From positions 1 to 52,835 of the forward strand of contig MNVG01000016.1 in assembly GCA_001871495.1 (NCBI GenBank): a stretch of 52,835 nt of DNA, given 5' to 3'. This document shows positions 21,859 to 43,639 of this stretch, one piece after another. A program made the position numbers and the translations under genes. The notes below the pieces were generated by a model. It did no database searches. It worked only from the letters and a program-made list of their open reading frames with translations, and was not told the origin of the DNA. Position 1 is the stretch's first letter; each line of letters opens with the position of its first letter. The stretch is from Candidatus Micrarchaeota archaeon CG1_02_51_15. GTDB lineage: Archaea; Micrarchaeota; Micrarchaeia; Norongarragalinales; UBA8480.

Positions 21859-23368
21859 TGTTTCCGTCGGTCGGCTTCCATGTGGGCGGCCTTGCGGGGG
21901 CTGGCGGCGGGTTTTCTTGAATGGCTTGTTCTTTTCCGTAGCCGTAGGAAATTGCTATTGCAACCGCGATTAGGATGAGGAGTGCGCCGAGCCAGGCCGC
22001 GTTTTGGGCACTGAACAAGCCGGTTGAACCGCTTGCTCCTAAAACAGTTGCAGCAGCTGCGGTTGCGTTGGTTGTATTAAACGCGTTTGCGACGAACGTG
22101 CTGGGTGCAGTTACGTTTACTGCCGGAGCATAAATGGGCCTCGGCTTGTCAAGGGTGCCTGGAGGAACGAGTGCGTAATAGGAGTTGGACGGAAGGACTG
22201 TGAACGAGCGCGAGGTTGTTGCAACGTCATAGGTTGCGGTTACTATTACTGTTCCGCGGTTTGTCGCGTGCAAGACTCCATCAGAGGTTATTGTCGCGAC
22301 GTTCGAGTCGGAAGTGCTCCACTGCGCGCTTATTGCGCCAATTGGGTTACCGTACTGGTCGGTTCCTTCTGCAGTCAAAGACAGTCCACTTCCTTCATAC
22401 AGTTTGTATTTGGAGTTTCGCGTGGTTATTTCCAGTTTCGAAGGACGGTCGGGAATTATAGTGACTAGCACGGTCGCATATAGGTTGGCGTCCGACTCGG
22501 CTTGCGCTTGGAAAGTGACTGTGCCGGTTTTGCGGCCAACAAGGATTCCGGTAGTAGTGAAGTCTGCGTAGCCGCTTTCCTGCCTAACTGAATAACGAAG
22601 TGCGGGAGTGGGGACGTTGTTGCCGTACTCGTCGAATGCCTGGGCCACAAAGGTATAGTATTGTCCTGCACGGGCGGTAAACAACGGCGAGCCGAAAGCC
22701 AAGTGGTCCAACTCGCGTTCTGTTACCGTAAGGTTGTAGGTTGCGGTTGCTTCGCCTGCGCGCACGGTTATTCCTGCACTGCCTGCCGAGTTGGAAAGAA
22801 AGTAGCCCGTCGAGTTTATGGAACCCAGCGTGGTGGTCCAAGAAACAGTGGTGTCAACGGAGTTGCCGAACGAGTCGTATACCGTTGCGTTCAGCTGCAG
22901 TCCCTCGCCTGCCAAGACCGTTTTGGATGAAGAGGTTAATGAAATGTAGTTGGGAATAGTGCCGGTTACGGTTAAGGTTATTGAAGAGGAAAAGCCGGAG
23001 AGCAAGGCGGTGACTATTACTTGGCCGGCGCGTTGGCCGTATATTTCGTTCGACCACATTCGCGCAGAGCCGTTTATTGGAGTGATTTGGAAGGATGGAG
23101 TTAGGTTTTCGGAGTAGGGCGGGATTATTGCCTGCGAGTTGCCTGAAGCGTCGGTTGCGATCACAGTCAGCCGCGCGCCGGCAGTAGAGTCGCTTGCTTC
23201 GACCGGGTTGTGGTCGCTGTAGAGTGAAATGGAGGTTATTGCGTCTATTGCGGCGGCTTGGCCGGTCAATACGATTAATGCCAGTAACGCGGTTAATGCA
23301 ATGCGGTTAAAACCATTCAATTTGCTCCCATCCCCTGTTTGCTTGCAACAGGCGTGAAGAATAGTCAA
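21851..23368 (-). CDS. cell-surface protein with repeated Ig-like (Big_2-type) domains and C-terminal TM anchor
   Basis: N-terminal signal/anchor (ALTALLALIVLTGQAAA). There are about four ~85-aa beta-rich repeats (...GTVIVTATYDVATTSRSFTVLP). The C-terminus has a TM helix (AAWLGALLILIAVAIAISYGYG) and a Pro-rich tail. Confidence 0.65.
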   Translation of the reverse strand: MTILHACCKQTGDGSKLNGFNRIALTALLALIVLTGQAAAIDAITSISLYSDHNPVEASDSTAGARLTVIATDASGNSQAIIPPYSENLTPSFQITPINGSARMWSNEIYGQRAGQVIVTALLSGFSSSITLTVTGTIPNYISLTSSSKTVLAGEGLQLNATVYDSFGNSVDTTVSWTTTLGSINSTGYFLSNSAGSAGITVRAGEATATYNLTVTERELDHLAFGSPLFTARAGQYYTFVAQAFDEYGNNVPTPALRYSVRQESGYADFTTTGILVGRKTGTVTFQAQAESDANLYATVLVTIIPDRPSKLEITTRNSKYKLYEGSGLSLTAEGTDQYGNPIGAISAQWSTSDSNVATITSDGVLHATNRGTVIVTATYDVATTSRSFTVLPSNSYYALVPPGTLDKPRPIYAPAVNVTAPSTFVANAFNTTNATAAAATVLGASGSTGLFSAQNAAWLGALLILIAVAIAISYGYGKEQAIQENPPPAPARPPTWKPTDGNNA

Positions 23369-26825: not shown

Positions 26826-29249
26826 TCACCATTCTCCTAGTCCTTTTTGGGTTCCTTTTGCTTTGAGGTCTTCGGCGTTGACTCCCAGCGCGCCGAGTAT
26901 TTTGAGCACTGCTGGAAGGACTTGGTTGTTTACGTAGTAGTCGGAGTCGTAGTCTTTAGCGAGTTCCAAGGGCTGTGCTTTTTCGGAAATGGTTTTTCCC
27001 GCTCGGGTTACTACGTAGGCTATTGTAGAAAATTCGGAGTAAGGCAGGCCTGCTGCCTGGGCTTTTTTGAGTGCCGAGAGTTCCGGGCTCATTATTTCGT
27101 AGGAAGCCGCTTTTTTGCGCAAGTGCGTGTAGATCACGCAGTCTTCCAACGGGGTTTTTCCGTTTTTTAGTTCTTCAATTGCTCGGCGGACGAGTTCCTT
27201 GGCTTTTTCAACGCTTCCGCCGCCTAGGAGTTCTTCTAGGACTTTGCGTTGTAGTTTTCTTGCAACGCGGCTCCAGTCGCGCCGCACCAGTTCGAAGCCG
27301 CGTATCTTGATTTTGCCTTCGCGGTTTATGAGCGCGTATTTTTTCTTGGCGCCGGTTTCGCCGTGTTTTTTCGAAACGAAAATGCCTCGCGGGTAAAGGT
27401 CTTCGAGCTCCAACTCCATTCCTTGCGGGAGCGAGGCGTTGATTTTCTTGCAGAATTCGGCGATTGTTTTCTCGCCTCCTTTTTTGAATTGTAGGAGCGT
27501 GGAGTCGGTGTCGCTGTAGAGAACTTTAAAACCGGCTTTTTCGGCTTTTTCAATCGTCTCGTGAATATACTGCCGCGCCCAGGCAGTAGTGCTTTCTGCG
27601 CATTCGCGTGAGTACCATCGCGAGCGGGCGTATCCTAGAAACCCGTAATAGCTGTTGGCTAAAATCTTAAGAGCGAGTTGACGGGCGTGGAGTTGGGGGT
27701 ATTCCGCGCCGTCCTTGCCTGTTTTCTTGATGCGGGCTTGGACTTCGCGCCGCGCTTCAACTATTTCCTCAAGAGTGGTGGGAATCAGGCCTTTTTGTTT
27801 CGAGCAAAAGCAGTGGCCTTGGGGGGAAACGCTGCGTTTTTCTTTAGGGCAGCAAGTGCAGTTGAGGGACTGGAGGTCGATGTTGTGGCTGATTATTATC
27901 GAGGGATACATTGATTTGAAGTCCAGCATTGCAAGGTTTTCGTACACTCCGGGTTCGGGGGTTTTTACGTACGCTCCTTCAATAGGGTTTTGTTGCCTTG
28001 CTTGGACTTCGGGTTCGCGGGGCTTGTTGGGAATCACTTCGTTGTGTTCAAACGCCCGGCGCATTAGCAGGGTTTCCACCATTTGGCCGGTTGTACTACG
28101 CGTTGTTTCGAAAAGGGTTTCGCCGCTGAGCCGCGACAACTCCGTTTCCAATGAAAGCGTGTGCTGAGCGAGCTCGAGGCAGGAAATCGCGTCGTCGCGG
28201 TTGTACTTGGCCAAGTGCTCTAGTGCAGCGCCGCCGGCGTCCCAAGCGCGGTGGATGTCAAGCTTGTTTATGTCCGTCTTTTGCTTGCCGAGTATTCCTG
28301 CATAGGCGTGGCCCAGCGTCATGCGGGGCAGCCTTATTGCGCCTACTGTGCTGAGGAAATTGACTACAGAGTAGACGTCGTAATGGATTCTTCCTGGAAC
28401 CCGCGTTACCGGGCGCAGTCCTGCCTGGCGCGTCTGCACTCTAGAGAGCACGCGACCCGGATAGAAAGAGGCCTTGATTTTTTGGGCGCGTTTTTGCAAG
28501 AAGGGCAAGTCGAATGCGTCGCCGTTGTAAGTGCACAACAAGTCCGTCTTTTTTTCGCGCAGTATTTCGCAAAAGCGTTCGATGCACGCCTTCTCCGATG
28601 GCAGGACTTGGACGAATTCGGACTCGAATTTCTTAGAGTAGGAAAGCACGATAGGCGAGTCGCTTGGCGACGCAAGTGAAATCATTATCACCGCGTCTTT
28701 TGCAGGGTCGGGGGCGTTTGCCGGAGTGTGCACTTCGATGTCGAACGCAAGCACGTTTAGAGAAAGCGGTTTTTCAACAGAATCCACGGGCTTGATTGAC
28801 TTAACGACCTTCCCTTCGAGCTCAACTTCACACGCCGAACATGGAATTAAACCCAAGTCGATGAGGAAGCGTTTGGGAAAGGAAATGCGGTGCTCGTAAC
28901 TCTGGCCCAGTGGCTTTGTTGCTTCGTGAAGCTTGGAAATCGCCAGAGGGTCGTCGGCGTAAACCTTCAGCATTTTCACGGACTTGCGGCAGAGCATTTT
29001 CTCTACTTCTTCAACGCGGCAAGGGGAATACTGCCCTTCGCGGCCTTGGACGCGCACGTCAAGTATTTTCTTGCGCAGCGACTCCCAGTCCGTGCCTTTT
29101 TCGGGGAGCACGTAGTAGTACGGCTTGAACGAGGTTTCGTAAGCCGGAAAACTGCGTCCGCTAATGCAGTCTTTAAGGAAAAGGCGCAAGCAAGGCCGAC
29201 TGTTTAAGGAAGCGTTTTCTACGTCCAAAAGAAACGCGGTTGTTTTCAT
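26826..29249 (-). CDS. polB: family B DNA polymerase
   Basis: Exo motifs (FDIEV, YNGDAFDLPFL). Pol motif A DFKSMYPSIIISHNI, motif B KILANSYYGFLGY and motif C YSDTDS. 807 aa with no intein. Confidence 0.93.
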   Translation of the reverse strand: MKTTAFLLDVENASLNSRPCLRLFLKDCISGRSFPAYETSFKPYYYVLPEKGTDWESLRKKILDVRVQGREGQYSPCRVEEVEKMLCRKSVKMLKVYADDPLAISKLHEATKPLGQSYEHRISFPKRFLIDLGLIPCSACEVELEGKVVKSIKPVDSVEKPLSLNVLAFDIEVHTPANAPDPAKDAVIMISLASPSDSPIVLSYSKKFESEFVQVLPSEKACIERFCEILREKKTDLLCTYNGDAFDLPFLQKRAQKIKASFYPGRVLSRVQTRQAGLRPVTRVPGRIHYDVYSVVNFLSTVGAIRLPRMTLGHAYAGILGKQKTDINKLDIHRAWDAGGAALEHLAKYNRDDAISCLELAQHTLSLETELSRLSGETLFETTRSTTGQMVETLLMRRAFEHNEVIPNKPREPEVQARQQNPIEGAYVKTPEPGVYENLAMLDFKSMYPSIIISHNIDLQSLNCTCCPKEKRSVSPQGHCFCSKQKGLIPTTLEEIVEARREVQARIKKTGKDGAEYPQLHARQLALKILANSYYGFLGYARSRWYSRECAESTTAWARQYIHETIEKAEKAGFKVLYSDTDSTLLQFKKGGEKTIAEFCKKINASLPQGMELELEDLYPRGIFVSKKHGETGAKKKYALINREGKIKIRGFELVRRDWSRVARKLQRKVLEELLGGGSVEKAKELVRRAIEELKNGKTPLEDCVIYTHLRKKAASYEIMSPELSALKKAQAAGLPYSEFSTIAYVVTRAGKTISEKAQPLELAKDYDSDYYVNNQVLPAVLKILGALGVNAEDLKAKGTQKGLGEW

Positions 29250-29339
29250 GCCTTTTTGTTACTGCAAGGGCCGATAAATTGGTTTTGGGAACGGGTTTAA
29301 TAAGTCTCTTTGAATTCGTTTCTTCAGGTGAGTTTTGGC

Positions 29340-29723
29340 ATGCCCGAACCAATAAGGCCGTTTGACGCAATTAAAGCGGACTTGCGGACGCTTGATTCCA
29401 AAATAAATTTGATTGCCCAGAAGATCCGCGTGATGGAAAAGAACGAGGACGTCTTGGGAAGGACGATGGTTACGCTTAACGACAAGTTGCACAAGCTCGA
29501 AGAAAGCGGAGGGCGCGCATCTGCAGCAGCAGCAAGCAGGCCCGACTCGGGAGCCGCTTCGGAAGAACTCAAGGAAAAAGTCAAGGCGCTTGAAGAAAAA
29601 CTCGACGCCACGCACTCGCAAGTTCTTGAAATGAAGTACGTAATAGACTCGATAAACCCCTTGGAGTACGCGACAATAAACCAAGTGCGCGAACTGTTGG
29701 AAGAAAAGCTCGGGAAGAAATAG
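29340..29723 (+). CDS. hypothetical coiled-coil protein
   Basis: The ORF track starts at TTG 29310; I prefer the ATG at 29340 (MPEPIRPF). It has two helical segments joined by a Gly/Ser/Ala-rich linker (EESGGRASAAAASRPDSGAAS). The layout matches 7498..7998. Confidence 0.55.
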   Translation: MPEPIRPFDAIKADLRTLDSKINLIAQKIRVMEKNEDVLGRTMVTLNDKLHKLEESGGRASAAAASRPDSGAASEELKEKVKALEEKLDATHSQVLEMKYVIDSINPLEYATINQVRELLEEKLGKK

Positions 29724-29742: not shown

Positions 29743-31485
29743 CTACACGTTTTCGAAGGAAGGCATTTCTTCCTCTTCCCTCTTTTGTTCAGTAGTTTTT
29801 GGTACAGGCGTTTCCTTTGCAACCAGATGGGGAGCGGGTTTTTGTGCAGCCGACTCGAGCGCCTGTTGCACGGGTGCGTGTACAAGCGCGGTCGACACTT
29901 CTTTTTTAGGGGCAAAGAATTTGAACAGCGGCTTTTTCTCCTGAACTGGAGAAGCAACAGGCAACGGCGGCTTTTGAATTGCAGTTGCAACCGGTGCGGT
30001 TACGGACGCCATTGCAGAGTCGGAGGAAAGTTTTTCAGTGCACTGCGAGTACGTCGGGCGCAAGGCAAACCGCAGTGGCCGTTCTCCTTTTTGTGCGCCT
30101 ATTGCCTCCATGCCGATCGACTCGAAGGCGGCAGTCAGTTCGCCGAACTGTCTTACGTCAACTTCGTGCTGTTCGTGCATCAATATGCCTACGCCTTGTC
30201 CGCGGTACTTGGACAACGCGGACTGGATTTCGTTGGACACCTGTGAAGCCTCGTTTTCAAAAGCGAGCACTAAAGAAAGCGAAGCAGACGGCGGAACGGG
30301 AATCGCTTCAATTACCGTAGCAATGAGCATGCGTTGTATCTCAAGAGGGTATTTCTTGAGGTTAAGCAACAACACTTTACCTACTGCGTCCCGCCAAGGC
30401 GTGGCCAAGTCGGCCGAAATGTTTTTGGCAAACAACGAAGGATACATTTTCTGGAGCACTTGAAGCACGCGGACTGCCCGGCGAAGGTTGAACATCGAAA
30501 CGCTTTTCGACTCCTTCATTGAAGCCAATTCGTTTATGACGTCCGAAAGCGAGAAAAGCGAAGCGCGTTTGGCGTCGTAAGCCGCTTTTATGGGTTCGGC
30601 CACCTCGCTTCCAGACAAGTAGAACCCGCGGAGGAAAGCGTCCGCATCTATTTTGCTCAAGTCAACATAAAGTCCTTCACCGAGTTCGAAAACCTTGAAC
30701 GGAAAACCGGTTGGAGTTCCCGACATTCCGAACTCGGAAAAGCTTGCCGAATCCCGGTTCGGAAGCCCGAACCCCCTGAAGGAATCGCCTGAATCGAATA
30801 TGAGTACGGTCACGCCGTTTTGCAGCGCGCCTTCTATGATAACGTGCATCAAATGCCGTCTGGACTCGCGCGTTCCACCGGTTATGGCCGCGTTGTAGAG
30901 AGAGTCGAGCTTTATTTCAAATTCTTTCTTCTCGCGGTCCAATCCAAGCAACAACTTGGGAAAATGCAGCGCAGCTTCCGCCGAAGTGCCCGGGCCGGTT
31001 CCGCCTGCGGAGGTATACGCGAAAAGCGAGAACGGGTCTCCCAAAAGCAACTGGGTCTGCGCTTCATCAACCAAACTAAAGTCGGTCAACTTGAACCCAT
31101 AAGCCGACGCAGTGTCCTTGGTTAACGACGCAACGCCTTCAAGCTCCAAATACTGTTTTTTAAGCACGCCCACCAAAGCGTCTTGGGAATACGCACAGTA
31201 CTCGGGAGTGGCGCCTACCATGAGGTAACGCCCGGAATTGTCTTTCGAATATTTTTCAACCAAAGTAACTTCACGCTTTTGGGCCTGCATGAAACGCGCG
31301 AGGTCGCCTTCGGCGTAAAAAACTTTCTTCAAAAGCATTACCGCGCCAGTAACGTTTTCGTCGCGTTTTTCGAAAACCATCAGCATAACTAGCTTCTCGG
31401 GGTTCTGGTAAATCGCTAGCGGATATTTTCCCCACTGAGCCGTAACCAAGCGAGTCCACGGCCCGTAAGGCAAGTCCAGTTCCAT
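29743..31485 (-). CDS. HerA/FtsK/VirB4-like (DUF87-type) NTPase homologue with degenerate Walker A/B, plus a Pro/Lys/Ala-rich C-terminal tail
   Basis: LDSLYNAAITGGTRESRRHLMHVIIEGALQNGVTVLIFDSGDSF has the layout of the HerA P-loop region (l..H.aI.G.TGSGKS......ie.....g..vlIfD..GEY), but GK[ST] is replaced by RESRR. LVLAFENEA sits where hhhhDEAH is expected, and YRGQGVGILMHEQ where RKyGvg....tQ is expected. I chose the start MELDLPY (31485) because the ORF-track extension to 31617 overlaps the divergent gene. Confidence 0.5.
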   Translation of the reverse strand: MELDLPYGPWTRLVTAQWGKYPLAIYQNPEKLVMLMVFEKRDENVTGAVMLLKKVFYAEGDLARFMQAQKREVTLVEKYSKDNSGRYLMVGATPEYCAYSQDALVGVLKKQYLELEGVASLTKDTASAYGFKLTDFSLVDEAQTQLLLGDPFSLFAYTSAGGTGPGTSAEAALHFPKLLLGLDREKKEFEIKLDSLYNAAITGGTRESRRHLMHVIIEGALQNGVTVLIFDSGDSFRGFGLPNRDSASFSEFGMSGTPTGFPFKVFELGEGLYVDLSKIDADAFLRGFYLSGSEVAEPIKAAYDAKRASLFSLSDVINELASMKESKSVSMFNLRRAVRVLQVLQKMYPSLFAKNISADLATPWRDAVGKVLLLNLKKYPLEIQRMLIATVIEAIPVPPSASLSLVLAFENEASQVSNEIQSALSKYRGQGVGILMHEQHEVDVRQFGELTAAFESIGMEAIGAQKGERPLRFALRPTYSQCTEKLSSDSAMASVTAPVATAIQKPPLPVASPVQEKKPLFKFFAPKKEVSTALVHAPVQQALESAAQKPAPHLVAKETPVPKTTEQKREEEEMPSFENV

Positions 31486-31555: not shown

Positions 31556-32002
31556 ATGGACATTAAAGTAATAGTAAGGCAGATGAAAGCACGCGGACTG
31601 CCTGAAGAAGAAATCAAGAAAAACCTTGAAGCACTCGGGGTTCCTAACCCTGATGAGGTCTACACCGAGGCAATCGAACGCGCAACCGAAGTACAACTGC
31701 CGCCAGTACAAGCCGAAGAACCCAAGGCAGAGTCAGTGGTGCAGCCTGTTGAGGAAATGCCGAAGTTTGAAATGACCAGCATTTCCGGCGAAGAAGAAAA
31801 GGCAATGGCAATAGGCAAAACAGCCACGCGAAATGCGCAAGCAGAAGCAGACGGCCTCATGACTGCAATGCCCAAAACCACGTCAGGAGAACTCACAGGC
31901 AAAATGGATGAAACCATTGCCCTTCTTAAAGCACTTCAGGACATCAACAAGAAAATCCTTGAAACAAACAAGGAAATGCTCATGCGGCTCAAAATGAAGT
32001 GA
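31556..32002 (+). CDS. hypothetical protein (small helical N-domain, acidic linker, C-terminal helix)
   Basis: 148-aa ORF divergent from the HerA-like gene. Its last 22 codons are duplicated 90 nt downstream. Confidence 0.55.
   Translation: MDIKVIVRQMKARGLPEEEIKKNLEALGVPNPDEVYTEAIERATEVQLPPVQAEEPKAESVVQPVEEMPKFEMTSISGEEEKAMAIGKTATRNAQAEADGLMTAMPKTTSGELTGKMDETIALLKALQDINKKILETNKEMLMRLKMK
31936..31988 (+). repeat. 53-bp exact direct repeat, copy 1 (3' end of CDS 31556..32002)
   Basis: TCAGGACATCAACAAGAAAATCCTTGAAACAAACAAGGAAATGCTCATGCGGC is identical to 32026..32078. Confidence 0.95.
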
Positions 32003-32025: not shown

Positions 32026-32078
32026 TCAGGACATCAACAAGAAAATCCTTGAAACAAACAAGGAAATGCTCATGCGGC
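32026..32078 (+). repeat. 53-bp exact direct repeat, copy 2 (orphan gene-end fragment)
   Basis: Same 53 nt, offset by exactly 90 nt. It is followed by its own in-frame stop (..MRPNMQ*) and separated from copy 1 by TGA and TAA stops. Confidence 0.95.
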
Positions 32079-32731
32079 CGAATATGCAGTGAACAAAAAT
32101 GGCCGAAACTAGGATAACCGCCCGCGAAAAAGGACCGCATCGCACGGAAACTCCTCCAAAAGATGCGCACAAAAAAAACTTGGACGCAATAGGGCGCAAA
32201 AAGAGCAATTGAAAAACACGCTCGCCTCGCCAGAGAAACGCAAGAAAACGCGGACTTCATAAAAGCAAACCGAGAATCCTTCAAAGATGGAACTATTTTT
32301 CTGCAAAAAAAAGGGATGCCTACAGTTAAGTGAAAAGCTGGCGCACTTAATGATTTTCCTCAACTGAAACGCAACCATTCTTGCGCCTTATTATTAGCCG
32401 CAAGTGACAGCAGACACTACTTTGTTGACCCTTTAAAATTATACGCGTGGTCGGACACACGCCCAACGTGGGCGGCAAGAATACACGAGAATCGTACTAT
32501 TATTGTCCACCCTAACCACTCACTTGAAGCATGCGAAGTGTTCAAGCGGGTTGCACACCACGTCCAACCCCGTTCACGTCGTTTAAGGGCCTCTAAGACG
32601 CCCTTGCAAAAGTGATTACCGACTACGAACGCGAAGCAGAACATCACCGTAAAATTGCTGAAGCTTACCAACGCGGTTTGAACCTGAAGCTTTCAGCCTA
32701 AAAAAATAGTTCAAGCAAATTCTTGAAACGC

Positions 32732-33079
32732 TTACTTCTTGAGTTGAACCACCAAAGTTGGCGTGTCGTCCTTCTTTTTTTCAGGCTCTTTTCCGAACGA
32801 ACCCCAGAAAGCGCCGAACAGGTTTCCGATAAAGTTAATGAAGTACCCGAAGCGCTCGCCAATTTCCTTTTCGCCGCCAAACGCCTTTTTCTCAGTGCCA
32901 TCCAAGCCGGAGTTAAAAGGCCGTGGCGAAGTGGGCGCGCGTTCTCCGCCGCTTTCCATCATCAGCGCGACGGCCAACCCGGCAATGAACAAGAAAGCGA
33001 AGAACACCTGCCCGGATTGTAAGAAGAACAACACGACAATCAACAGAATCAACGTAATTATTGCGTTCAAAACCTTCAC
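32732..33079 (-). CDS. small membrane protein 7 of 7 (2 TM plus a charged C-terminal tail)
   Basis: 115 aa. Its start abuts the stop of the upstream gene with 0-nt spacing. Confidence 0.6.
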   Translation of the reverse strand: MKVLNAIITLILLIVVLFFLQSGQVFFAFLFIAGLAVALMMESGGERAPTSPRPFNSGLDGTEKKAFGGEKEIGERFGYFINFIGNLFGAFWGSFGKEPEKKKDDTPTLVVQLKK

Positions 33080-33367
33080 TCACCTTGCGTAACCGCCGTA
33101 AGCGCCTGCTTCAGGACCTGCGGAATCGCCTTTGACTAGCAAAACGAGTACGACGAACAAGCCTATTAAGTAAGCCCATGGCGGAGTCGAAGGCCCTAAA
33201 AGAAAGCCCACGCCGGCAGTTGCGCCGCCTGCAATTGCAGCAACAATCATCAGCTTGCTTTTTGCGCTCAAAAACAGCAGCACCAACAACCCCACTGCAA
33301 GCCACCACAAGCCGCTCTGCATTGCAATAACCATAAGGACTGCTATGAATAGAAAGGTAAAATCCAT
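33080..33367 (-). CDS. small membrane protein 6 of 7 (3 TM)
   Basis: 95 aa and almost entirely hydrophobic. There is a 3-nt gap to the upstream gene. Confidence 0.6.
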   Translation of the reverse strand: MDFTFLFIAVLMVIAMQSGLWWLAVGLLVLLFLSAKSKLMIVAAIAGGATAGVGFLLGPSTPPWAYLIGLFVVLVLLVKGDSAGPEAGAYGGYAR

Positions 33368-33370
33368 TTT

Positions 33371-33601
33371 TTAACCCAGGAACGCAAGCCACTCCATCAA
33401 AATGCCCCTAATACCGCCTATTACGTTTAACGCAGTAGTCAGGAAGAAATCGACTTTGAAGGTAAAGAAAGCAAGCCCGCCCAGGCACAACAAGGAAAGC
33501 ATGGGATCGCCGTATTCTGCAAAGTAAACTACGCCTGCGCCGACTGCAAGAAAACCCAGAATCTCGGGGTCGCTTAAAAATCCTAACGAAGTTTCAATCA
33601 T
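33371..33601 (-). CDS. small membrane protein 5 of 7 (2-3 TM)
   Basis: 76 aa and hydrophobic. There is a 13-nt gap to the upstream gene. Confidence 0.55.
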   Translation of the reverse strand: MIETSLGFLSDPEILGFLAVGAGVVYFAEYGDPMLSLLCLGGLAFFTFKVDFFLTTALNVIGGIRGILMEWLAFLG

Positions 33602-33614
33602 TTAAACCAACAAC

Positions 33615-33878
33615 TTAAAACCATTTTTTGGGGTCGACTACGGTGAACAAGCCGTACATTACCAACACCGCGAACAACAAGTACTTGAACCAATCGTAAG
33701 GCAACACCAACAGGAAGATTATCAACGCAGTAACCAGCAAGGCCAGTAGCGGGTGGCGTATAAAATTATTGGACAACAGGTTGTACAACGTGAAGAAAAC
33801 CAGGATTAATGCAACCAAGCCAAAGGCTTCTCCGAAGTCAGTGTACAACAACGCCGGCAGAAACGCTTGTTCGAACAT
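33615..33878 (-). CDS. small membrane protein 4 of 7 (3 TM; paralogue of protein 2)
   Basis: 87 aa. RHPLLALLVTALIIFLLVLPYDW aligns with FSPLLTMVVAAVLIYYLVIVYPW of 34299..34580. Confidence 0.6.
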   Translation of the reverse strand: MFEQAFLPALLYTDFGEAFGLVALILVFFTLYNLLSNNFIRHPLLALLVTALIIFLLVLPYDWFKYLLFAVLVMYGLFTVVDPKKWF

Positions 33879-33908
33879 GTTAGGAAATAATTTTGTAAAC
33901 TCGACGAT

Positions 33909-34298
33909 TTAAAGCCTGCGTTTGGCAAGCGATTTCTTCAATTTACCGCTATTGGTCGCGCCAAAGACTTTTTTGAACTCCGAAGCAAGTTCTGCGTAAA
34001 GCTTGCGCGTGCCGAGGATAAACTCGCCTTCAAGCATTACCGCGTAAAGCAGTGCTCCGAACATCATTCCGCCTGCAAACCACGAAAACACGCGCTCTCC
34101 TAAGGAAACTCCTTCTTTAAGGTTGGAAACAACCTGCCCGCTGACTTGCGGATATTCGGAAAGCAAGTACTGCCAAGTTATCCACGAAACAGCTATTGCA
34201 ACGACTATTACGGCCAAGCGCCACTTGGGGTTGAACCACTTGGCGCGGTGAGCGCTGGCAAAACTGTACAGTTCCAAGAAACCCATTTTTTCAACCAT
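33909..34298 (-). CDS. small membrane protein 3 of 7 (2-3 TM plus a basic C-terminus)
   Basis: 129 aa. There is 0-nt spacing to the upstream gene. Confidence 0.6.
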   Translation of the reverse strand: MVEKMGFLELYSFASAHRAKWFNPKWRLAVIVVAIAVSWITWQYLLSEYPQVSGQVVSNLKEGVSLGERVFSWFAGGMMFGALLYAVMLEGEFILGTRKLYAELASEFKKVFGATNSGKLKKSLAKRRL

Positions 34299-34580
34299 TT
34301 ATTCCAAACCCCTTTTTTTCTTATGCACGAACCTGAACAAAAACGGCGCAAACACCGAACCAAAGTACAGTATTCCCGAGAACATCAAAATCGATAAAAT
34401 CCAGCCTATGAACCCGGCCCAAGGATAGACTATCACCAAATAGTAAATCAAGACCGCTGCAACCACCATTGTAAGAAGCGGCGAAAACGCCAGGTGCTCC
34501 TGCGCCCAATTGTAGTAGTAATACGCCATAAGGAATACGACTATCCACCAAACCCACTGCAATTCTTCAAGGAACAACAT
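34299..34580 (-). CDS. small membrane protein 2 of 7 (3 TM, Trp/Tyr-rich)
   Basis: 93 aa. There is a 9-nt gap to the upstream gene. Confidence 0.6.
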   Translation of the reverse strand: MLFLEELQWVWWIVVFLMAYYYYNWAQEHLAFSPLLTMVVAAVLIYYLVIVYPWAGFIGWILSILMFSGILYFGSVFAPFLFRFVHKKKRGLE

Positions 34581-34589
34581 GAAATATCA

Positions 34590-35060
34590 CTACATCATTC
34601 TTCGCCGCATCAGCTGCTCCTGCATCATTCCCGTATTCTGCTGTGCCTTCATCTGCTTGGCAGTCCAGCCTTCCATGAAATCCTGCTCGGCCTGGTTCAA
34701 GGGCTGGCCTTCCGACATTTTTTCTTCAAGACGCATGGCTTCGCTCTGTTCAAATTGATGCTTGTGTCCTCCTATGCCAAACGCGCCGAGAATCGGTTCC
34801 AAACCGAATTGCACGAGCATCTGCACTTGGTTACCGAATACCACGAACAAGAAGAACGCAAGCAGCAGAAAAACCACGGAAACCGCGTGGATGAAGAAAA
34901 AATAAGCGGCCACTATCACTGCAAGCCCGAAGAGAACCTGGTTCTCGCGGAACATCATGTACAACTGGAACAACAAGTAGGAAAACGCGATTATCTTTAC
35001 TACGAACCACAAGTCGCCGAAAGCCTCCAACAATACAAGCCCGACGGCAAACGAAAACAC
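34590..35060 (-). CDS. small membrane protein 1 of 7 (4 TM plus a Gln/Met-rich soluble tail)
   Basis: 156 aa and the first gene of the array. Confidence 0.6.
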   Translation of the reverse strand: MFSFAVGLVLLEAFGDLWFVVKIIAFSYLLFQLYMMFRENQVLFGLAVIVAAYFFFIHAVSVVFLLLAFFLFVVFGNQVQMLVQFGLEPILGAFGIGGHKHQFEQSEAMRLEEKMSEGQPLNQAEQDFMEGWTAKQMKAQQNTGMMQEQLMRRRMM

Positions 35061-35183: not shown

Positions 35184-35729
35184 CTAAGCCCGTTTGCCGC
35201 GATAACCTGCCGAAGACACGATTGAGAAAATGTCTTTTTCATCGTAGATTGCCTGCAGTAAGTTTCTAAACATGAACGCCTTGGCCAAACCAGTCTTTTC
35301 TTGAATCATAATCAGTTCCAATACTTTGGCTATGAATTCAACGCTGTATTCGCCGTAACTGTCGAGTTTTTCGAATTGTTCAATATTGTGTTTGGTGCTG
35401 ACTTTCAACTCGCATTCTTGCTGCTGCGTTTGGTTTCCGAACGGCTCTGTCTTATCCCACATCCCTAGCAAAAACTTGACAAACTCCAAAGTAAGAGTTC
35501 GATTGTGTTCTTTCTTTATCAGCAAATCTATTGCCCAGTGCAAATGTTGAGGCGTCCTCACTCGCTTGCCCGCCTCTCGATATTTGACAATAATGTCCAA
35601 GTCGGAATTTGCTCCTCGTCGCCCCTGAAAAACGCCGATGACTACTCCTTTTTTAGTAAGAAATTCTTTGAACGCCCGCGCCTTCGGTGGTTTTAAGCCG
35701 TCACCGGGCGTTTTTGGTTGGTATTCCAT
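35184..35729 (-). CDS. hypothetical protein associated with the R-M locus
   Basis: The ORF-track start is TTG at 35735; I prefer the ATG at 35729 (MEYQPK). It is divergent from the putative endonuclease across only ~34 bp. No motif recognised. Confidence 0.5.
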   Translation of the reverse strand: MEYQPKTPGDGLKPPKARAFKEFLTKKGVVIGVFQGRRGANSDLDIIVKYREAGKRVRTPQHLHWAIDLLIKKEHNRTLTLEFVKFLLGMWDKTEPFGNQTQQQECELKVSTKHNIEQFEKLDSYGEYSVEFIAKVLELIMIQEKTGLAKAFMFRNLLQAIYDEKDIFSIVSSAGYRGKRA

Positions 35730-35733
35730 ACCC

Positions 35734-35756
35734 AAATAAATCCGTAGCGATTATAT
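35734..35756. promoter_or_regulatory. back-to-back TATA-like boxes in a 34-bp divergent intergenic region (implies leaderless mRNAs)
   Basis: AAATAAAT (35734-35741) lies 23-30 nt upstream of ATG 35764. TTATAT (35751-35756, read on the minus strand) lies 22-27 nt upstream of ATG 35729. Confidence 0.35.
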
Positions 35757-35763
35757 CAAGGTT

Positions 35764-36294
35764 ATGATTCGCAGGGGAACGGAGGGCAGGACGCCGCTTA
35801 GGCACGGGCTTCGTTTTGAGAAGCGGACTGATTTGGCGACGGTTATCGCGAGACTGCCTGACTTTTGTGTTAAGGGCGACTCGGTCGAGTATCGCGGAAA
35901 GGAAGTTGCCTTGCTTTACAAGAAGAACAAGCTTTACTCCAAACTACTGCAGCCAATGGGCGCGGATTACCGCAGGTTCATATCGAAAAGACTGTTGTCG
36001 GACGACGTGGTTCTCGTGTTGGTGGACAAGACGCTTTTCATAATCGAAACCGAGTTTCAAACGGTGGCGGGTTCAGTTGATGAAAAGCTTCAGACCTGTG
36101 GCTTCAAGTTAAGGCAGTACAAGAAGCTGTTCGAACCGATTGGCCTTAAGGTAAAGTATGCGTACGTGCTAAACGATTGGTTCAAGAAGCCAGAGTACAA
36201 GGACGTCCTGGACTACATTAAGTCAGTTGATTGTGATTACTTCTTCTACGAGCTTCCTTTGAGCTATTTGGGGTTCCCAGTTCCGGACAATTAG
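35764..36294 (+). CDS. putative type II restriction endonuclease (PD-(D/E)xK-like)
   Basis: VLVDKTLFIIETEFQTVAGSVDEKL has the D...(E)x(E/K)-then-helix pattern seen in small type II REases. It is adjacent and convergent to a Dam-class methyltransferase. No family-level match can be made by eye. Confidence 0.45.
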   Translation: MIRRGTEGRTPLRHGLRFEKRTDLATVIARLPDFCVKGDSVEYRGKEVALLYKKNKLYSKLLQPMGADYRRFISKRLLSDDVVLVLVDKTLFIIETEFQTVAGSVDEKLQTCGFKLRQYKKLFEPIGLKVKYAYVLNDWFKKPEYKDVLDYIKSVDCDYFFYELPLSYLGFPVPDN

Positions 36295-37146
36295 TTCCTT
36301 TACTTTCCCACGCCGGTCTCCCTTGCAGTTAATTGCCCGGTTGGCGCAAACCGTTTCAAGCTCAAACTCGGCGTAAAGATCGCGCGTAAAATCCGAAAAC
36401 GAGTTGCTCAACAACACGTAACAGCCCCGAGCATCAAGTTCCCTAACGGTCGCCAATAGCTTTTCCTGATCACTTTCAAAAAAGCCTTTTTCAGTATATC
36501 CCGTGAAGCTGGACGCCTTCGAAACCGGGACGTAAGGGGGATCGAAGTAAACCAAGTCTCCTTTCTTGGCATTATTCAATACAACAGCAAAATCGCCGCA
36601 GTACAACTCGTCTTTTTGCAACGCGCGGTGTACCCTGATCAAGTTCTCACTGTCGAGTATCTTGGGATTGGCGTACTTTCCGAATGGAACGTTAAAACCG
36701 CCCTTGGAGTTTACGCGGTACAACCCGTTGAAAGCGGTTTTATTCAAGTAGATGAAACGCGCCGCCCGACCGATATCGGAAACAGGTTTTGACGCACGAA
36801 CCGCGTAGTAAGCAGTGGAATTATTGGCGTACTTTGGAAGCGCGAGTTCGGCCATCAGCTCGAAAACGTGGCTTTTTATCGTACGATAGGCGTTGATTAG
36901 TTCCGCGTTAGAGTCGCTCAAGAAAGCGGTGTGCGCAAAATCCGCAGATTCTGCGACATGTCGGTTTGCCTGCGGCAAACCGCACATCTTTAAACGGTTT
37001 TCGGCCTCAAGCCGGAAGAACACGGCCCCGCCGCCAAGGAACGGCTCGTGATAGTTCCTAAATACTGGCAATCCTTTGGTGAGCTCGTTCATAAGCTGCC
37101 GCTTGCCGCCCGCCCACTTTACGAATGGTTTTGCTTCACTTAACAC
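36223..37146 (-). CDS. DNA adenine methyltransferase, D12 (Dam) class
   Basis: PFVKWAGGKRQL at the N-terminus, EPFLGGGAVFF (SAM binding) and the catalytic DPPY (VYFDPPYVP). GTG start. Confidence 0.88.
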   Translation of the reverse strand: MLSEAKPFVKWAGGKRQLMNELTKGLPVFRNYHEPFLGGGAVFFRLEAENRLKMCGLPQANRHVAESADFAHTAFLSDSNAELINAYRTIKSHVFELMAELALPKYANNSTAYYAVRASKPVSDIGRAARFIYLNKTAFNGLYRVNSKGGFNVPFGKYANPKILDSENLIRVHRALQKDELYCGDFAVVLNNAKKGDLVYFDPPYVPVSKASSFTGYTEKGFFESDQEKLLATVRELDARGCYVLLSNSFSDFTRDLYAEFELETVCANRAINCKGDRRGKVKELIVRNWEPQIAQRKLVEEVITIN

Positions 37147-41072: not shown

Positions 41073-42047
41073 ATGCTTGCCTTACCCAAGAACAAAGCGC
41101 GGGATTTTCTGCTTGAATTAAAGCGCGCAGAGCCCAATCGCCAAGTGTTGGCGCCAATTGCAGACGGGCGCGAAACCAGGTATTTCATCTTCCCATCTAC
41201 ATTCCCGCTTTTCACTGAATCCCTGCCATCTTACTCTGCCAAAAAGTTTTTTCTCCCACCTCGCGAAGACCTCTTTAGGTTCAGAGCCGCCAAAGGAAAA
41301 TACGAGGCAACAGAAGAAAACTTGGAGTGCGACCGCGTGCTTTTCGGACTACGCCACTGCGACGTGCACGGACTCAAGGTTTTGGACAAGTTCTTCAACG
41401 ACGACTCGTCGGACAACTACTGGCGCAGGCGCGAAGGCACTGCAATTATTGCGTTGAACTGCCCGCAGCCTGCGGCCTCGTGTTTTTGCGACGCAATGGG
41501 AACGCGGCACTCTAAAGGAGCGGACGTTGAACTTGAAGATGCGGGAAAAGAATGGCTGTTGGAAGCAAAGACCCGCGTCGGAAAAAAGCTGGCTGCCCAA
41601 ACAAGCGAAACACTGGTTGAAAGCAACGCCAAACCGCTACAGGAAGAGCCATGCGCGATTAACGCATCCAAGCACAAGCTGCTTGCACTTAAAGAAAACG
41701 AAGGTTTTTGGGACGCCATTGCTTCAGGCTGCTTAAACTGCGGAGCGTGCAACATCGTCTGCCCAACGTGCACTTGCTTCGACGTTGAAGACGACTGCAC
41801 GCTTGAAGGCGAGGGCTCGCGATGCAGGCACTGGACGAGCTGCGTGTTGAACGACTACACCCGAACTGCAGGAGACCACGTTTTTAGAAAAGGCAATCGC
41901 GAAAAGGCATTGATTCGCGTCCAGCACAAGCTGGGTTGGTTTAAAGAAAAGTTCGGCGAAGCAAGTTGCACAGGCTGCGGCCGCTGTTCGTTGCACTGCC
42001 CGACTAAAGTATCGACTGCAGACGTTGCACTAAAGTGGTTGAAATAA
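41073..42047 (+). CDS. hydB: group 3b [NiFe] hydrogenase (sulfhydrogenase) beta subunit, 4Fe-4S protein (AsrA-like)
   Basis: Ferredoxin-type clusters CLNCGACNIVCPTCTCF and CTGCGRCSLHCP. It is the first gene of a four-gene cluster in the order beta-gamma-delta-alpha. Confidence 0.8.
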   Translation: MLALPKNKARDFLLELKRAEPNRQVLAPIADGRETRYFIFPSTFPLFTESLPSYSAKKFFLPPREDLFRFRAAKGKYEATEENLECDRVLFGLRHCDVHGLKVLDKFFNDDSSDNYWRRREGTAIIALNCPQPAASCFCDAMGTRHSKGADVELEDAGKEWLLEAKTRVGKKLAAQTSETLVESNAKPLQEEPCAINASKHKLLALKENEGFWDAIASGCLNCGACNIVCPTCTCFDVEDDCTLEGEGSRCRHWTSCVLNDYTRTAGDHVFRKGNREKALIRVQHKLGWFKEKFGEASCTGCGRCSLHCPTKVSTADVALKWLK

Positions 42048-42841: not shown

Positions 42842-42850
42842 TAACCTTCA

Positions 42851-43621: not shown

Positions 43622-43639
43622 CGTAACAGGGACTGCAAA

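What the first reader, a model, noticed from the sequence alone, without database searches (positions are those of the whole stretch)
29743..31485. HerA/VirB4-like NTPase homologue whose Walker A and B motifs are both degenerate
The central ~60 residues follow the HerA/FtsK/VirB4 (DUF87) P-loop layout. A beta-strand leads into a G-rich loop, then a helix, then hhhhD..G-E/D-x-F. The downstream segments LVLAFENEA and YRGQGVGILMHEQ sit where Walker B (hhhhDEAH) and the RKyG..hhh.tQ motif normally are.

The catalytic residues are replaced. Walker A reads GGTRESRR instead of GxTGSGK[ST], and Walker B reads ENEA instead of DEAH. A ~110-aa Pro/Lys/Ala/Gln-rich tail follows.

The result looks like a conserved-looking but probably catalytically dead, or mechanistically divergent, secretion/translocation-type ATPase. 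It is divergent from a small helical protein and 1.2 kb from an array of seven tiny membrane proteins. In Ced/Ted DNA import, archaeal conjugation and type IV-like systems, such ATPases are encoded next to small polytopic membrane partners.
Basis: partly seen in the sequence, partly recalled or inferred. Interest (0 to 1): 0.75.

Follow-up and report, generated by a model that had tools for sequence, protein, structure and literature searches.

The report
Catalytically dead HerA-like protein family
This gene from a tiny symbiotic archaeon (Micrarchaeota) encodes a relative of the ring-shaped HerA/FtsK motor ATPases that has lost its ATP-burning residues in every known member, and it sits in a gene cluster with small membrane proteins that is conserved across two archaeal phyla, so it probably acts as a non-motor scaffold of an undescribed envelope complex.

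Summary
Window 29743-31485 (minus strand) is a real 580-aa gene.

**HerA relationship.** Residues ~175-486 are a diverged HerA/FtsK-type P-loop domain:
- Foldseek to HerA: E 8e-11.
- Family profile to Sulfolobus HerA: E 1.7e-6.
- hhalign to DUF87 + HAS-barrel HerAs: 97%, E 9.6e-11.

**Degenerate motifs.** This is a family trait, not a sequence error.
- None of 144 near-full-length relatives, nor an Iainarchaeum member, has GK[ST].
- An Arg (R209) usually replaces the Walker A Lys.
- The Walker B acidic pair and the arginine-finger position are not conserved.

- The N-terminal 158 residues are not a HAS barrel. The fold has only a weak resemblance to YbjN and type III secretion chaperones.
- The family is known only from Micrarchaeota and Iainarchaeota. 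No Pfam, NCBIfam or PADLOC model matches it significantly.
- A gene cluster is conserved even where PolB identity is only 35-41%: often a giant SpaA/Ig-repeat protein, then 4-9 small membrane proteins, a divergent coiled-coil gene, this gene, a convergent coiled-coil gene, PolB and MetAP.

**Reading.** Most likely a non-catalytic ring, scaffold or adaptor of a lineage-specific envelope complex. That function is inferred, not shown. Membership of Ced/Ted/T4SS is not supported. I rate it a new variant of a known kind.

The parts
29743..31485 (-). Pseudo-HerA gene, 580 aa. Start ATG at 31485, stop at 29743-29745.
   Evidence: ORF list and translation. 8 close and about 200 distant homologues. Start confirmed by alignment.
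31012..31485 (-). N-terminal domain, residues 1-158: a seven-stranded beta sheet plus a long helix. It is not a HAS barrel. It carries the conserved GPW, NP and LLGDP motifs.
   Evidence: AF2 domain model, pLDDT 87. Foldseek finds no hit at E<=1e-3; the best are YbjN/AmyR at E ~0.03, with SycE also listed. hhalign against the HerA N-terminus gives no match.
30028..30963 (-). Diverged HerA/FtsK-type P-loop (ASCE) domain with a helical insertion, residues ~175-486.
   Evidence: Foldseek: HerA 9x1m_A E 8e-11 and 4d2i_A 1.6e-10, plus TrwB, VirB4 and FtsK. HMMER to 4d2i_A E 1.7e-6. hhalign to DUF87 + HAS-barrel HerAs 97%, E 9.6e-11. BFVD HerA-like hit E 1.3e-11, rmsd 4.6.
30856..30879 (-). Degenerate Walker A, GGTRESRR (residues 203-210). 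G203 sits at the first Gly and R209 at the Lys position. There is no Gly before it and no Ser/Thr after it.
   Evidence: Aligned to HerA ATGSGKS. Family column counts: G203 112/144 and R209 120/144. Position 208 is mostly E/D/Q and position 210 mostly L/K. No GK[ST] at this site in any of 144.
30253..30273 (-). Degenerate Walker B strand, LVLAF-E410-N411. HerA has hhhh-E-E here.
   Evidence: Alignment to HerA IAVIEEAH. Family position 410 is P63/E41/D12. Position 411 is E39/K21/N20/Q14.
30169..30207 (-). YRGQGVGILMHEQ, the counterpart of HerA GRKFGVGLTIVSQ. G431 and G433 are conserved. The arginine-finger position (R428 here) is not conserved in the family.
   Evidence: Column counts: position 428 is S23/P17/K15/A14/E14.
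30046..30072 (-). C-terminal motif RFALRPTYS. R472 is near-invariant. R476 is invariant in the 116-sequence alignment A2 and found in 142/144 of the larger set. R476-P477 aligns with the HerA 'RPR' segment.
29746..30027 (-). Lineage-specific disordered tail rich in A/P/V/K/E, residues 487-580.
   Evidence: pLDDT ~30. Present only in P0001-P0005. Composition.
31556..32002 (+). 'c2': divergently transcribed 148-aa protein. It has a small N-terminal helical domain, a disordered linker and a conserved C-terminal helix (…INKKILETNKEMLMRLK). It shares a 70-bp intergenic region with the target.
   Evidence: Conserved in this position in most loci. Alignment A4. Only coiled-coil noise in Pfam and PDB.
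29340..29723 (+). 'c1': convergent 127-aa coiled-coil protein (the ORF may start at 29310). It carries an invariant C-terminal motif Y-x-x-D-x-x-N-P-L.
   Evidence: Alignment A5. At least 358 relatives in Micrarchaeota and Iainarchaeota/Diapherotrites. Conserved position. No significant Pfam or PDB match.
32732..35060 (-). Array of seven small predicted membrane proteins on the same strand as the target:
- M1 34590-35060
- M2 34299-34580
- M3 33909-34298
- M4 33615-33878
- M5 33371-33601
- M6 33080-33367
- M7 32732-33079
   Evidence: Hydropathy gives 1-4 TM segments each. Collinear orthologues in L002, and an M6 orthologue in L026/L028. The same order of sizes and TM counts (about 3, 4, 2, 3, 2) recurs in L026, L028, L030, L031 and L032. 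No Pfam or NCBIfam family.
26826..29249 (-). Family B DNA polymerase, a conserved downstream neighbour. It is syntenic, and there is no evidence that it belongs to the same system.
   Evidence: Pfam DNA_pol_B 2.8e-60. Adjacent in L001, L002, L006, L026, L028, L030, L031 and L032.

Best explanation
**Shown.**
- The gene encodes a member of an unnamed protein family found so far only in the DPANN phyla Micrarchaeota and Iainarchaeota.
- The C-terminal two thirds descend from a HerA/FtsK-type P-loop ATPase.
- The residues that bind Mg-NTP and catalyse hydrolysis are lost or unconserved in every member examined. These are the Walker A Gly-Lys-Ser/Thr, the Walker B acidic pair and the arginine finger.
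- It is therefore a pseudo-ATPase.
- The HAS barrel of HerA is replaced by a different N-terminal beta-sheet domain.

**Inferred.**
- The protein keeps the ring-forming scaffold of its ancestors and works as a non-catalytic hub or adaptor on the cytoplasmic face of the membrane.
- It would be held there by the two flanking coiled-coil proteins (c2, c1).
- It would be coupled to the conserved set of about five small polytopic membrane proteins, and in many genomes to a giant SpaA/Ig-repeat surface protein encoded just upstream.
- Any energy for transport or assembly would come from elsewhere, for example ion-motive force or another ATPase.
For: **Homology to HerA/FtsK ATPases.**
- Foldseek on the AF2 model (core pLDDT ~90): HerA E 8e-11 to 1e-10, then SIR2-HerA, TrwB, VirB4 and FtsK.
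- Top hit in the viral library is a HerA-like protein, E 1.3e-11, rmsd 4.6 Å.
- Family profile against PDB: Sulfolobus HerA 1.7e-6 and YjgR 5e-6.
- The profile finds DUF87 + HAS-barrel HerAs at 8e-8 in a 5.8-billion-sequence database.
- hhalign: 97%, E 9.6e-11.

**Family-wide loss of catalytic motifs.**
- 0 of 144 relatives have GK[ST] at the P-loop.
- The Gly before the Lys position is mostly E/D/Q. The Ser/Thr position is L/K/R/I.
- The first Walker B position is P > E > D. The arginine-finger position is variable.
- The Iainarchaeum member reads TGGKNNL.

**Real and conserved.**
- 223 clusters at 50% identity, 199 of them at E<=1e-10.
- G181, E218 and R476 are invariant.

**Conserved neighbourhood at phylum-level divergence.**
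- Target identity is 21-26% and PolB identity 35-41%.
- Loci L001, L002, L026, L028, L030, L031 and L032 show small TM proteins, then divergent c2, the target, then convergent c1.
- A 1,599 to >2,700-aa SpaA/CarboxypepD_reg protein lies upstream in L002, L026, L028, L031 and L032.
- The target has no TM segment.
- The flanking proteins are helix-linker-helix coiled coils.
Against: - The functional link to the membrane array rests on gene order only.
- PolB and MetAP are just as stably syntenic and are unlikely to belong to the same machine, so part of the conservation may be plain synteny.
- In one Micrarchaeota clade (the L014-L018, L020, L023 and L025 type) the gene lies among housekeeping genes (proteasome beta, aCPSF1, TFE) without c1, c2 or the array. 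In L003-L005, L019 and L022 the array is not adjacent.
- Oligomeric state, membrane association and lack of nucleotide binding are all untested.
- The full-length AF2 model rests on only 8 sequences (mean pLDDT 73).
- R209 at the Lys position is well conserved (120/144), which leaves room for some phosphate or nucleotide binding.
Confidence: 0.5

Rival explanations
1. DNA-metabolism accessory. A HerA-derived, hydrolysis-dead ring acts on or near DNA, for example as a replication, repair or segregation adaptor working with PolB. It would not be an envelope component.
For: The nearest relatives by sequence and structure are HerA DNA translocases. PolB is the next gene but one in most loci across both phyla. 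In the clade lacking the array, the gene sits among information-processing genes. Several conserved basic residues are present: R339, R472, R476 and K264.
Against: No NurA, Mre11 or Rad50 is found in any neighbourhood examined. The gene has no motor activity with which to translocate DNA. The HAS barrel that HerA uses is absent. PolB is separated by the convergent c1 gene, and in L002 by four POR genes.
Confidence: 0.2
2. Still an NTPase, with a non-canonical site. R209 substitutes for the Walker A lysine, and other conserved residues (H211, H214, E218, R472/R476 in trans) complete an unusual catalytic centre. The protein would then still be a motor for secretion or translocation.
For: R209 aligns exactly with the Walker A Lys and is conserved in 120/144. 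G203 is conserved in 112/144. E218 is invariant, and R472 and R476 are near-invariant. This particular protein keeps E410 at the first Walker B position and R428 at the arginine-finger position.
Against: The residue before R209 is usually acidic, and the Mg-coordinating Ser/Thr is replaced by a hydrophobic or basic residue. The Walker B pair is most often P-x and the arginine-finger position is variable. About 24 of 144 members, and the Iainarchaeum protein, lack even the Arg. From general knowledge of P-loop enzymes, Lys-to-Arg changes in Walker A normally abolish hydrolysis. E218 and R476-P477 have counterparts in true HerA, so they look structural rather than like a new active site.
Confidence: 0.1
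3. Component of a Ced/Ted-like or type IV secretion-like DNA or protein transfer system. The small membrane proteins would be VirB2/VirB3/VirB6 or CedA analogues and this protein the VirB4/CedB equivalent.
For: VirB4, TrwB and DotL-type coupling proteins are among the structural matches. The only NCBIfam hint is TraC-F-type, over the P-loop region, E 0.049. The conserved adjacency to several 2-4-TM proteins of 75-155 aa resembles the Ced/Ted/T4SS layout.
Against: - HerA matches are stronger than VirB4 matches at both the sequence and the structure level.
- No Pfam or NCBIfam hit links any small protein to VirB2, VirB3, VirB6, TrbC or any other known family.
- No second, active ATPase, relaxase or coupling protein is present in the cluster.
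- The locus is a core chromosomal block beside PolB and MetAP, not a mobile element.
- The 'ATPase' lacks catalytic motifs, whereas VirB4 and CedB activity is, to my knowledge, required in those systems.
Confidence: 0.1
4. Artefact: a decaying pseudogene or a sequencing or assembly error in a normal HerA gene.
For: None beyond the odd motifs. There is one I/L difference at residue 217 from the database copy.
Against: The reading frame is intact. About 200 clusters of full-length homologues carry the same degenerate motifs in independent assemblies from many sites. Non-catalytic positions are strongly conserved.
Confidence: 0.01

Closest known systems
Archaeal HerA (DUF87/PF01935 + HAS barrel/PF09378), e.g. 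Sulfolobus HerA 4D2I and Thermococcus HerA-NurA 9X1M
   Same: Same P-loop core with a helical insertion. Segments align one for one: the strand, P-loop and helix, then 'hhhFD', the Walker B strand, 'FGxG…Q' and the C-terminal 'RP'. It is the best hit by sequence profile and by fold.
   Different: No GK[ST], no conserved acidic Walker B pair and no conserved arginine finger. The N-terminal domain is not a HAS barrel. No NurA/Mre11/Rad50 neighbours. No Pfam DUF87 hit for the single sequence.
VirB4/TrwK, CedB-type ATPases and type IV coupling proteins (TrwB, DotL)
   Same: Same superfamily fold (Foldseek E 1e-5 to 3e-7). Encoded next to several small polytopic membrane proteins, as in T4SS and Ced/Ted loci.
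   Different: Weaker similarity than to HerA. No TM anchor. Catalytic motifs lost. No recognisable VirB2/3/6, CedA or TedC partners. Core chromosomal locus.
Degenerate FtsK/SpoIIIE-like domains of type VII secretion EccC/EssC (e.g. 5FV0, 4LYA)
   Same: A precedent for an FtsK/HerA-fold domain with a degenerate nucleotide site that serves regulation or substrate docking rather than hydrolysis, alongside small helical proteins and membrane components (my knowledge of the T7SS literature). The only match here is sub-significant, over the P-loop region, E ~0.1.
   Different: In EccC/EssC the degenerate domains are fused to an active ATPase domain. Here the dead domain stands alone. The similarity is not significant. 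No WXG100 or EssB-type partners were detected.
Bacterial HerA-like proteins (YjgR 11kk; SIR2-HerA and DUF4297-HerA defence ATPases)
   Same: Significant profile and fold matches: YjgR E 5e-6, 8wiv E 1.6e-3, and Foldseek hits ranked 5-20.
   Different: Those are active ATPases paired with effector nucleases or NADases. There is no PADLOC hit and no effector gene nearby.

Membership tests
FtsK-HerA superfamily (ASCE P-loop pumping ATPases) | RecA-like ASCE core fold, homologous to HerA/FtsK/VirB4 | tested here: met
   Foldseek E 8e-11 to HerA, and 49 PDB hits at E<=1e-3, all from this superfamily. HMMER 1.7e-6. hhalign 97%.
FtsK-HerA superfamily (ASCE P-loop pumping ATPases) | Walker A GxxxxGK[ST] | tested here: not met
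   GGTRESRR here. 0 of 144 relatives have GK[ST] at the aligned site. The Iainarchaeum member reads TGGKNNL.
FtsK-HerA superfamily (ASCE P-loop pumping ATPases) | Walker B hhhh[DE][DE] with a catalytic glutamate | tested here: not met
   VLAF-E-N here. Family columns are P63/E41/D12 then E39/K21/N20/Q14.
FtsK-HerA superfamily (ASCE P-loop pumping ATPases) | Conserved arginine finger (the R of 'RKxG' in HerA) | tested here: not met
   The aligned position is R428 in this protein but S/P/K/A/E across the family.
FtsK-HerA superfamily (ASCE P-loop pumping ATPases) | Hexameric ring assembly | not testable with these tools
   No multimer prediction or experiment was available. The C-terminal 'RP' segment shared with HerA is retained.
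HerA proper (DUF87 + HAS barrel, partner of NurA) | N-terminal HAS barrel (PF09378) | tested here: not met
   hhalign of residues 1-175 against the HerA N-terminus: probability 0.4%. The domain model (pLDDT 87) has no HAS-barrel, HerA or F1 hit; the best are YbjN/AmyR at E ~0.03.
HerA proper (DUF87 + HAS barrel, partner of NurA) | Match to Pfam DUF87/HerA central domain above threshold | tested here: not met
   No Pfam hit at E<=10 for the single sequence. Only profile-level similarity.
HerA proper (DUF87 + HAS barrel, partner of NurA) | Genomic linkage to nurA/mre11/rad50 | tested here: not met
   None in the window or in the related loci whose called genes were listed.
VirB4/CedB-type ATPase of T4SS, Ced or Ted systems | VirB4/TraC/CagE-type domain match | tested here: inconclusive
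   Only TIGR02746 TraC-F-type at E 0.049, 11.5 bits against a cut-off of 567. VirB4 structures match at E ~1e-5, weaker than HerA.
VirB4/CedB-type ATPase of T4SS, Ced or Ted systems | Recognisable partner proteins: VirB2/TedC/CedA1 pilin, VirB3, or a VirB6/CedA channel | tested here: not met
   The seven small proteins have no Pfam or NCBIfam match. Structure-level comparison was not done.
VirB4/CedB-type ATPase of T4SS, Ced or Ted systems | Active NTPase motifs | tested here: not met
   See the Walker A and Walker B rows.

The most novel reading that the evidence does not exclude
The conserved block may encode a previously undescribed envelope machine specific to Micrarchaeota and Iainarchaeota. 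The block comprises:
- a giant SpaA/Ig-repeat surface protein;
- about five small polytopic membrane proteins in fixed order;
- two coiled-coil proteins;
- this pseudo-HerA.

The machine could be a host-contact, secretion or surface-assembly apparatus of these episymbiotic archaea. A HerA-derived ring would have been converted from a motor into a passive cytoplasmic docking platform. Its N-terminal domain, which weakly resembles YbjN and type III secretion chaperones, might bind cargo or partners.
Probability: 0.25. Interest if true: 0.8.

Novelty: new variant of a known kind. Interest (0 to 1): 0.6.

Why it matters
DPANN archaea such as Micrarchaeota live attached to host cells. Most of their lineage-specific genes are 'hypothetical', and how they contact hosts or exchange material with them is largely unknown.

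This result gives a fold and an evolutionary origin to one phylum-wide hypothetical protein. It shows that the protein is a conserved pseudo-enzyme rather than a motor. It also defines a compact, testable gene set around it: two coiled-coil proteins, about five small membrane proteins, and often a giant surface protein.

More generally, as far as I found, it would be a stand-alone, family-wide inactivated member of the HerA/FtsK pumping-ATPase superfamily. That makes it a useful case for studying how ring ATPases are recycled as scaffolds.

A cultivated Micrarchaeon exists (Ca. Micrarchaeum harzensis, PMC8975820), which could make expression, localisation and cryo-ET tests feasible. I did not check whether that organism carries the family.

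Tried and rejected
- **Single-sequence searches.** Pfam gave nothing at E<=10. NCBIfam gave only TraC at 0.049. PDB phmmer gave only a spurious aspartate aminotransferase stretch at 0.1. PADLOC gave nothing. Homology appears only with a deep family profile.
- **HAS barrel at the N-terminus.** Rejected by hhalign and by Foldseek on a dedicated domain model.
- **Genome-collection scans.** The 8-sequence alignment worked but reaches only close Micrarchaeota.
- **c1 and c2.** Pfam, NCBIfam and PDB profile searches gave only coiled-coil noise. This includes a sub-threshold KaiC 'ATPase' hit for c1, 23 bits against a cut-off of 26.6, and DUF7310 for a c2 homologue, 27.5 against 40. I treat these as uninformative.
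- **S-layer idea.** I asked whether the giant upstream protein is the Micrarchaeota S-layer protein. The published SLP is a 101-kDa PF05123 protein (bioRxiv 10.1101/2021.04.28.441871), so it does not appear to be the same protein.
- **Literature.** Searches combining DPANN, Micrarchaeota, Iainarchaeota, HerA, VirB4, inactivated P-loop and conserved gene cluster found no description of this family.
- **The 640-bp gap at 32093-32731.** No tRNA, no Rfam match and no phage DNA match.
- **Bacterial-type promoter/terminator scan.** Uninformative for an archaeon.
Full report
**1. What is at the coordinates**

Window 29743-31485 on the minus strand is an intact ORF of 580 codons starting with ATG.

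The window is a chromosomal piece of a Micrarchaeota archaeon.
- The identical-length database protein differs at one residue, I217 versus L. It is annotated 'hypothetical protein, Candidatus Micrarchaeota archaeon'.
- The surrounding genes are housekeeping genes: PolB, PolD DP1/DP2, L10e, TtuA-like, MetAP, RNase P subunits, Alba and others.

**2. Is it HerA/FtsK-like?**

The single sequence gives nothing.
- Pfam has no hit at E<=10.
- NCBIfam gives only TraC-F-type at E 0.049 over residues 196-237.
- PDB phmmer gives only noise.

Three independent deeper lines agree.

(a) Structure.
- An AlphaFold2 model built on the 8-sequence alignment has mean pLDDT 73 and ~90 through most of residues 180-480.
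- Its best Foldseek PDB hits are HerA: 9x1m_A at 8e-11 and 4d2i_A at 1.6e-10.
- SIR2-HerA, DUF4297-HerA, TrwB, DotL-complex, VirB4 and FtsK follow. All 49 hits at E<=1e-3 belong to this superfamily.
- The viral library gives a HerA-like protein first, at 1.3e-11 with rmsd 4.6 Å over 396 columns.

(b) Profile against solved structures.
- A profile search of 1.84 billion representatives found 223 clusters, 199 of them at E<=1e-10.
- A 116-sequence profile of these (A2) matches Sulfolobus HerA 4d2i_A at E 1.7e-6 across residues 167-468. It matches YjgR at 5e-6 and a SIR2-associated HerA at 1.6e-3.

(c) Profile against the large protein database.
- The same profile, searched against 5.8 billion proteins, pulls out proteins carrying Pfam DUF87 (PF01935) and HAS-barrel (PF09378) at 8e-8 to 2e-5.
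- hhalign of the family against those HerAs gives probability 97% and E 9.6e-11 over 303 columns.

**3. Are the motifs really degenerate, and is that a family trait?**

- '…AAITGGTRESRRHLMHVIIEGALQNGVTVLIFD' pairs with HerA '…AILAATGSGKSNTVAVLSQRISELGGSVLIFD'.
  - G203 is the first Walker A glycine.
  - R209 sits on the catalytic lysine.
  - S208 replaces the invariant glycine.
  - R210 replaces the Mg-binding Ser/Thr.
- 'LVLAF-E410-N411-EA' pairs with HerA 'IAVI-E-E-AH'.
- 'YRGQGVGILMHEQ' pairs with 'GRKFGVGLTIVSQ'. This puts R428 on the position I count as HerA's arginine finger.

Across 144 near-full-length relatives:

| Position | Observed residues |
|---|---|
| P-loop site | no sequence has GK[ST] |
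| 203 | G in 112 |
| 209 | R in 120 |
| 208 | E/D/Q/K/S |
| 210 | L/K/R/I/M |
| 410 | P 63, E 41, D 12 |
| 411 | E 39, K 21, N 20, Q 14 |
| 428 | S/P/K/A/E |

An Iainarchaeum member reads TGGKNNL.

In A2 the fully invariant residues are G181, E218 and R476. G8, P9, W10, N28, P151, G260, P262, R339, G369, R472 and P477 are at >=90%.

E218 and R476-P477 align with identical residues in true HerA. The strongest conservation is therefore structural, not catalytic. This is the signature of a conserved pseudo-enzyme. It rules out a sequencing error or a recent pseudogene.

**4. Domain architecture**

- **Residues 1-158.**
  - They form a seven-stranded sheet with a 28-residue helix. The separate domain model has pLDDT 87 and pTM 0.81.
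  - It has no sequence similarity to the HAS barrel and no Foldseek PDB hit at E<=1e-3.
  - The best hits are YbjN/AmyR at E ~0.03 and probability 0.8-0.87. The type III secretion chaperone SycE also appears in the list.
  - I treat this as 'not a HAS barrel; possibly a YbjN/T3S-chaperone-like fold; unproven'.
- **Residues 157-174.** A low-confidence linker.
- **Residues ~175-486.** The degenerate P-loop domain with a helical insertion at about 281-361.
- **Residues 487-580.** A disordered A/P/V/K/E-rich tail, found only in the five closest homologues.
- No TM segment is predicted.

**5. Distribution**

- Every named hit is Micrarchaeota, Micrarchaeia or Norongarragalinales.
- Through the neighbour protein c1, I found the same cluster in Iainarchaeum sp. 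GCA_050950745.1. Its 493-aa protein is a full-length member, hhalign E 1.4e-69.
- The family therefore spans at least two DPANN phyla (taxonomy).

**6. Genomic context**

In the window the order is as follows.
- M1-M7: seven ORFs of 76-156 aa on the minus strand at 32732-35060, with 1-4 predicted TM segments each.
- A ~640-bp gap.
- c2 at 31556-32002, plus strand, divergent from the target.
- The target.
- c1 at 29340-29723, plus strand, convergent with the target.
- PolB, then two small ORFs, then MetAP.

The same arrangement recurs widely.
- L001/L009 at 63% identity and L002/L010 at 48%.
- The distant members P0110 (L026), P0076 (L028), P0090 (L030) and P0150 (L031), and Iainarchaeum (L032).
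- In those distant loci the target is only 21-26% identical to the window protein, and PolB 35-41%.
- The small proteins keep their order and character. Sizes of about 110-155, 93-130, 74-99, 95-116 and 106-123 aa go with about 3, 4, 2, 3 and 2 TM segments.
- M1-M4, M6 and M7 have collinear orthologues in L002. M6 is detectably orthologous in L026 (2e-7) and L028 (6e-3). M2 and M4 are paralogues.
- A 1,599 to >2,700-aa protein with SpaA, CarboxypepD_reg or Big_1 hits (weak or faint) precedes the array in L002, L026, L028, L031 and L032.

There are exceptions.
- In L003-L005, L019 and L022 the trio c2-target-c1 is kept, but S17e lies upstream instead of the array.
- In the L014-type clade the target lies between aCPSF1 and TFE without c1, c2 or the array.

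c1 and c2 are helix-linker-helix proteins with strongly conserved terminal helices.
- The c1 family has at least 358 members in Micrarchaeota and Iainarchaeota/Diapherotrites. Automatic annotations for it are inconsistent.
- Neither protein has a significant match to any known family.

**7. How it most likely works**

Shown: it is a HerA/FtsK-fold protein without the chemistry for NTP hydrolysis, conserved under selection, soluble, and flanked by coiled-coil proteins and a fixed set of small membrane proteins.

Inferred: it retains ring or oligomer formation and serves as a passive cytoplasmic platform or adaptor of a lineage-specific membrane complex.
- The coiled-coil proteins would act as tethers or stalks.
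- From my own knowledge, this is comparable in logic to non-catalytic B subunits of rotary ATPases, or to the degenerate FtsK-like domains of T7SS EccC/EssC that dock substrates.
- I give the whole statement 0.5: about 0.9 for 'pseudo-ATPase derived from HerA' and about 0.35 for 'part of an envelope complex with the neighbouring genes'.

Rivals:
- a DNA-metabolism accessory linked to PolB (0.2);
- an NTPase with an unusual Arg-based site (0.1);
- a genuine Ced/Ted/T4SS-type system (0.1);
- an artefact (0.01).

**8. Comparison with known systems and novelty**

The protein is homologous to HerA and belongs by descent to the FtsK-HerA superfamily. It fails the defining functional features tested:
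- Walker A, Walker B and the arginine finger;
- the HAS barrel and NurA linkage for HerA proper;
- recognisable VirB/Ced partners for T4SS-like systems.

No Pfam, NCBIfam or PADLOC model matches it significantly. Seven literature searches found no description.

I classify it as a new variant of a known kind: a stand-alone, family-wide inactivated HerA-like protein with a new N-terminal domain, embedded in a conserved DPANN-specific cluster.

Interest is 0.6. It is a well-defined, testable lead into DPANN cell-envelope biology and into how ATPases turn into scaffolds. Its function is still inferred from gene order only.

Noticed in passing
window 31936-32002 and 32026-32092: The last 67 nt of the c2 gene, including its stop codon, are repeated 90 nt downstream at 94% identity. 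This is a short tandem duplication of the gene's 3' end.
   Followed up: partly
window 32093-32731: A ~640-bp stretch between c2 and M7 has no convincing ORF. It has no tRNA, no Rfam match even at E<=1, and no phage DNA match. In the closest relative L001 the M7 orthologue abuts c2 directly, so this looks like an insertion or a decayed sequence specific to this genome.
   Followed up: partly
window 35184-37146: A D12-class N6-adenine DNA methyltransferase (36223-37146, Pfam 1.6e-53) sits between the membrane-protein array and ribosomal protein L10e. Two unannotated ORFs of 183 and 176 aa lie beside it (35184-35735 minus strand, 35764-36294 plus strand). It may be a small restriction-modification insertion. 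It is not at this position in L001 or L002.
   Followed up: no
window 41073-44953: A four-gene cluster that resembles a soluble [NiFe] hydrogenase (sulfhydrogenase-like): a 4Fe-4S dicluster protein, a FAD/NAD-binding oxidoreductase, the Oxidored_q6 small subunit and the NiFeSe large subunit. It lies in a Micrarchaeota genome.
   Followed up: no
window 29340-29723 (c1) and its relatives P0172-P0291: The c1 coiled-coil family is large (at least 358 clusters) and extends to Iainarchaeota/Diapherotrites. It carries contradictory automatic names: prefoldin subunit 5, V-type ATPase subunit I, RuvC/YqgF nuclease, chromosome segregation ATPase. Its Y-x-x-D-x-x-N-P-L motif is invariant.
   Followed up: partly
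window 34299-34580 (M2) and 33615-33878 (M4): Two of the small membrane proteins are paralogues of each other (phmmer E ~3e-6). The array therefore grew partly by local duplication.
   Followed up: partly
window 19723-23368: Two large proteins downstream of MetAP have weak matches: 711 aa to Peptidase_C25 and 505 aa to Big_2. Related loci also carry Big_2, PKD or Glug proteins near MetAP, so the surface-protein genes are part of the same long syntenic block.
   Followed up: no
window 30835-30837 (codon 217): The window encodes Ile (ATA) where the otherwise identical database protein P0001 has Leu. This is the only difference in 580 residues.
   Followed up: yes
L006/L007/L028 (related loci): PolB next to the cluster carries intein insertions (Intein_splicing, LAGLIDADG) in some lineages but not in the window.
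   Followed up: no
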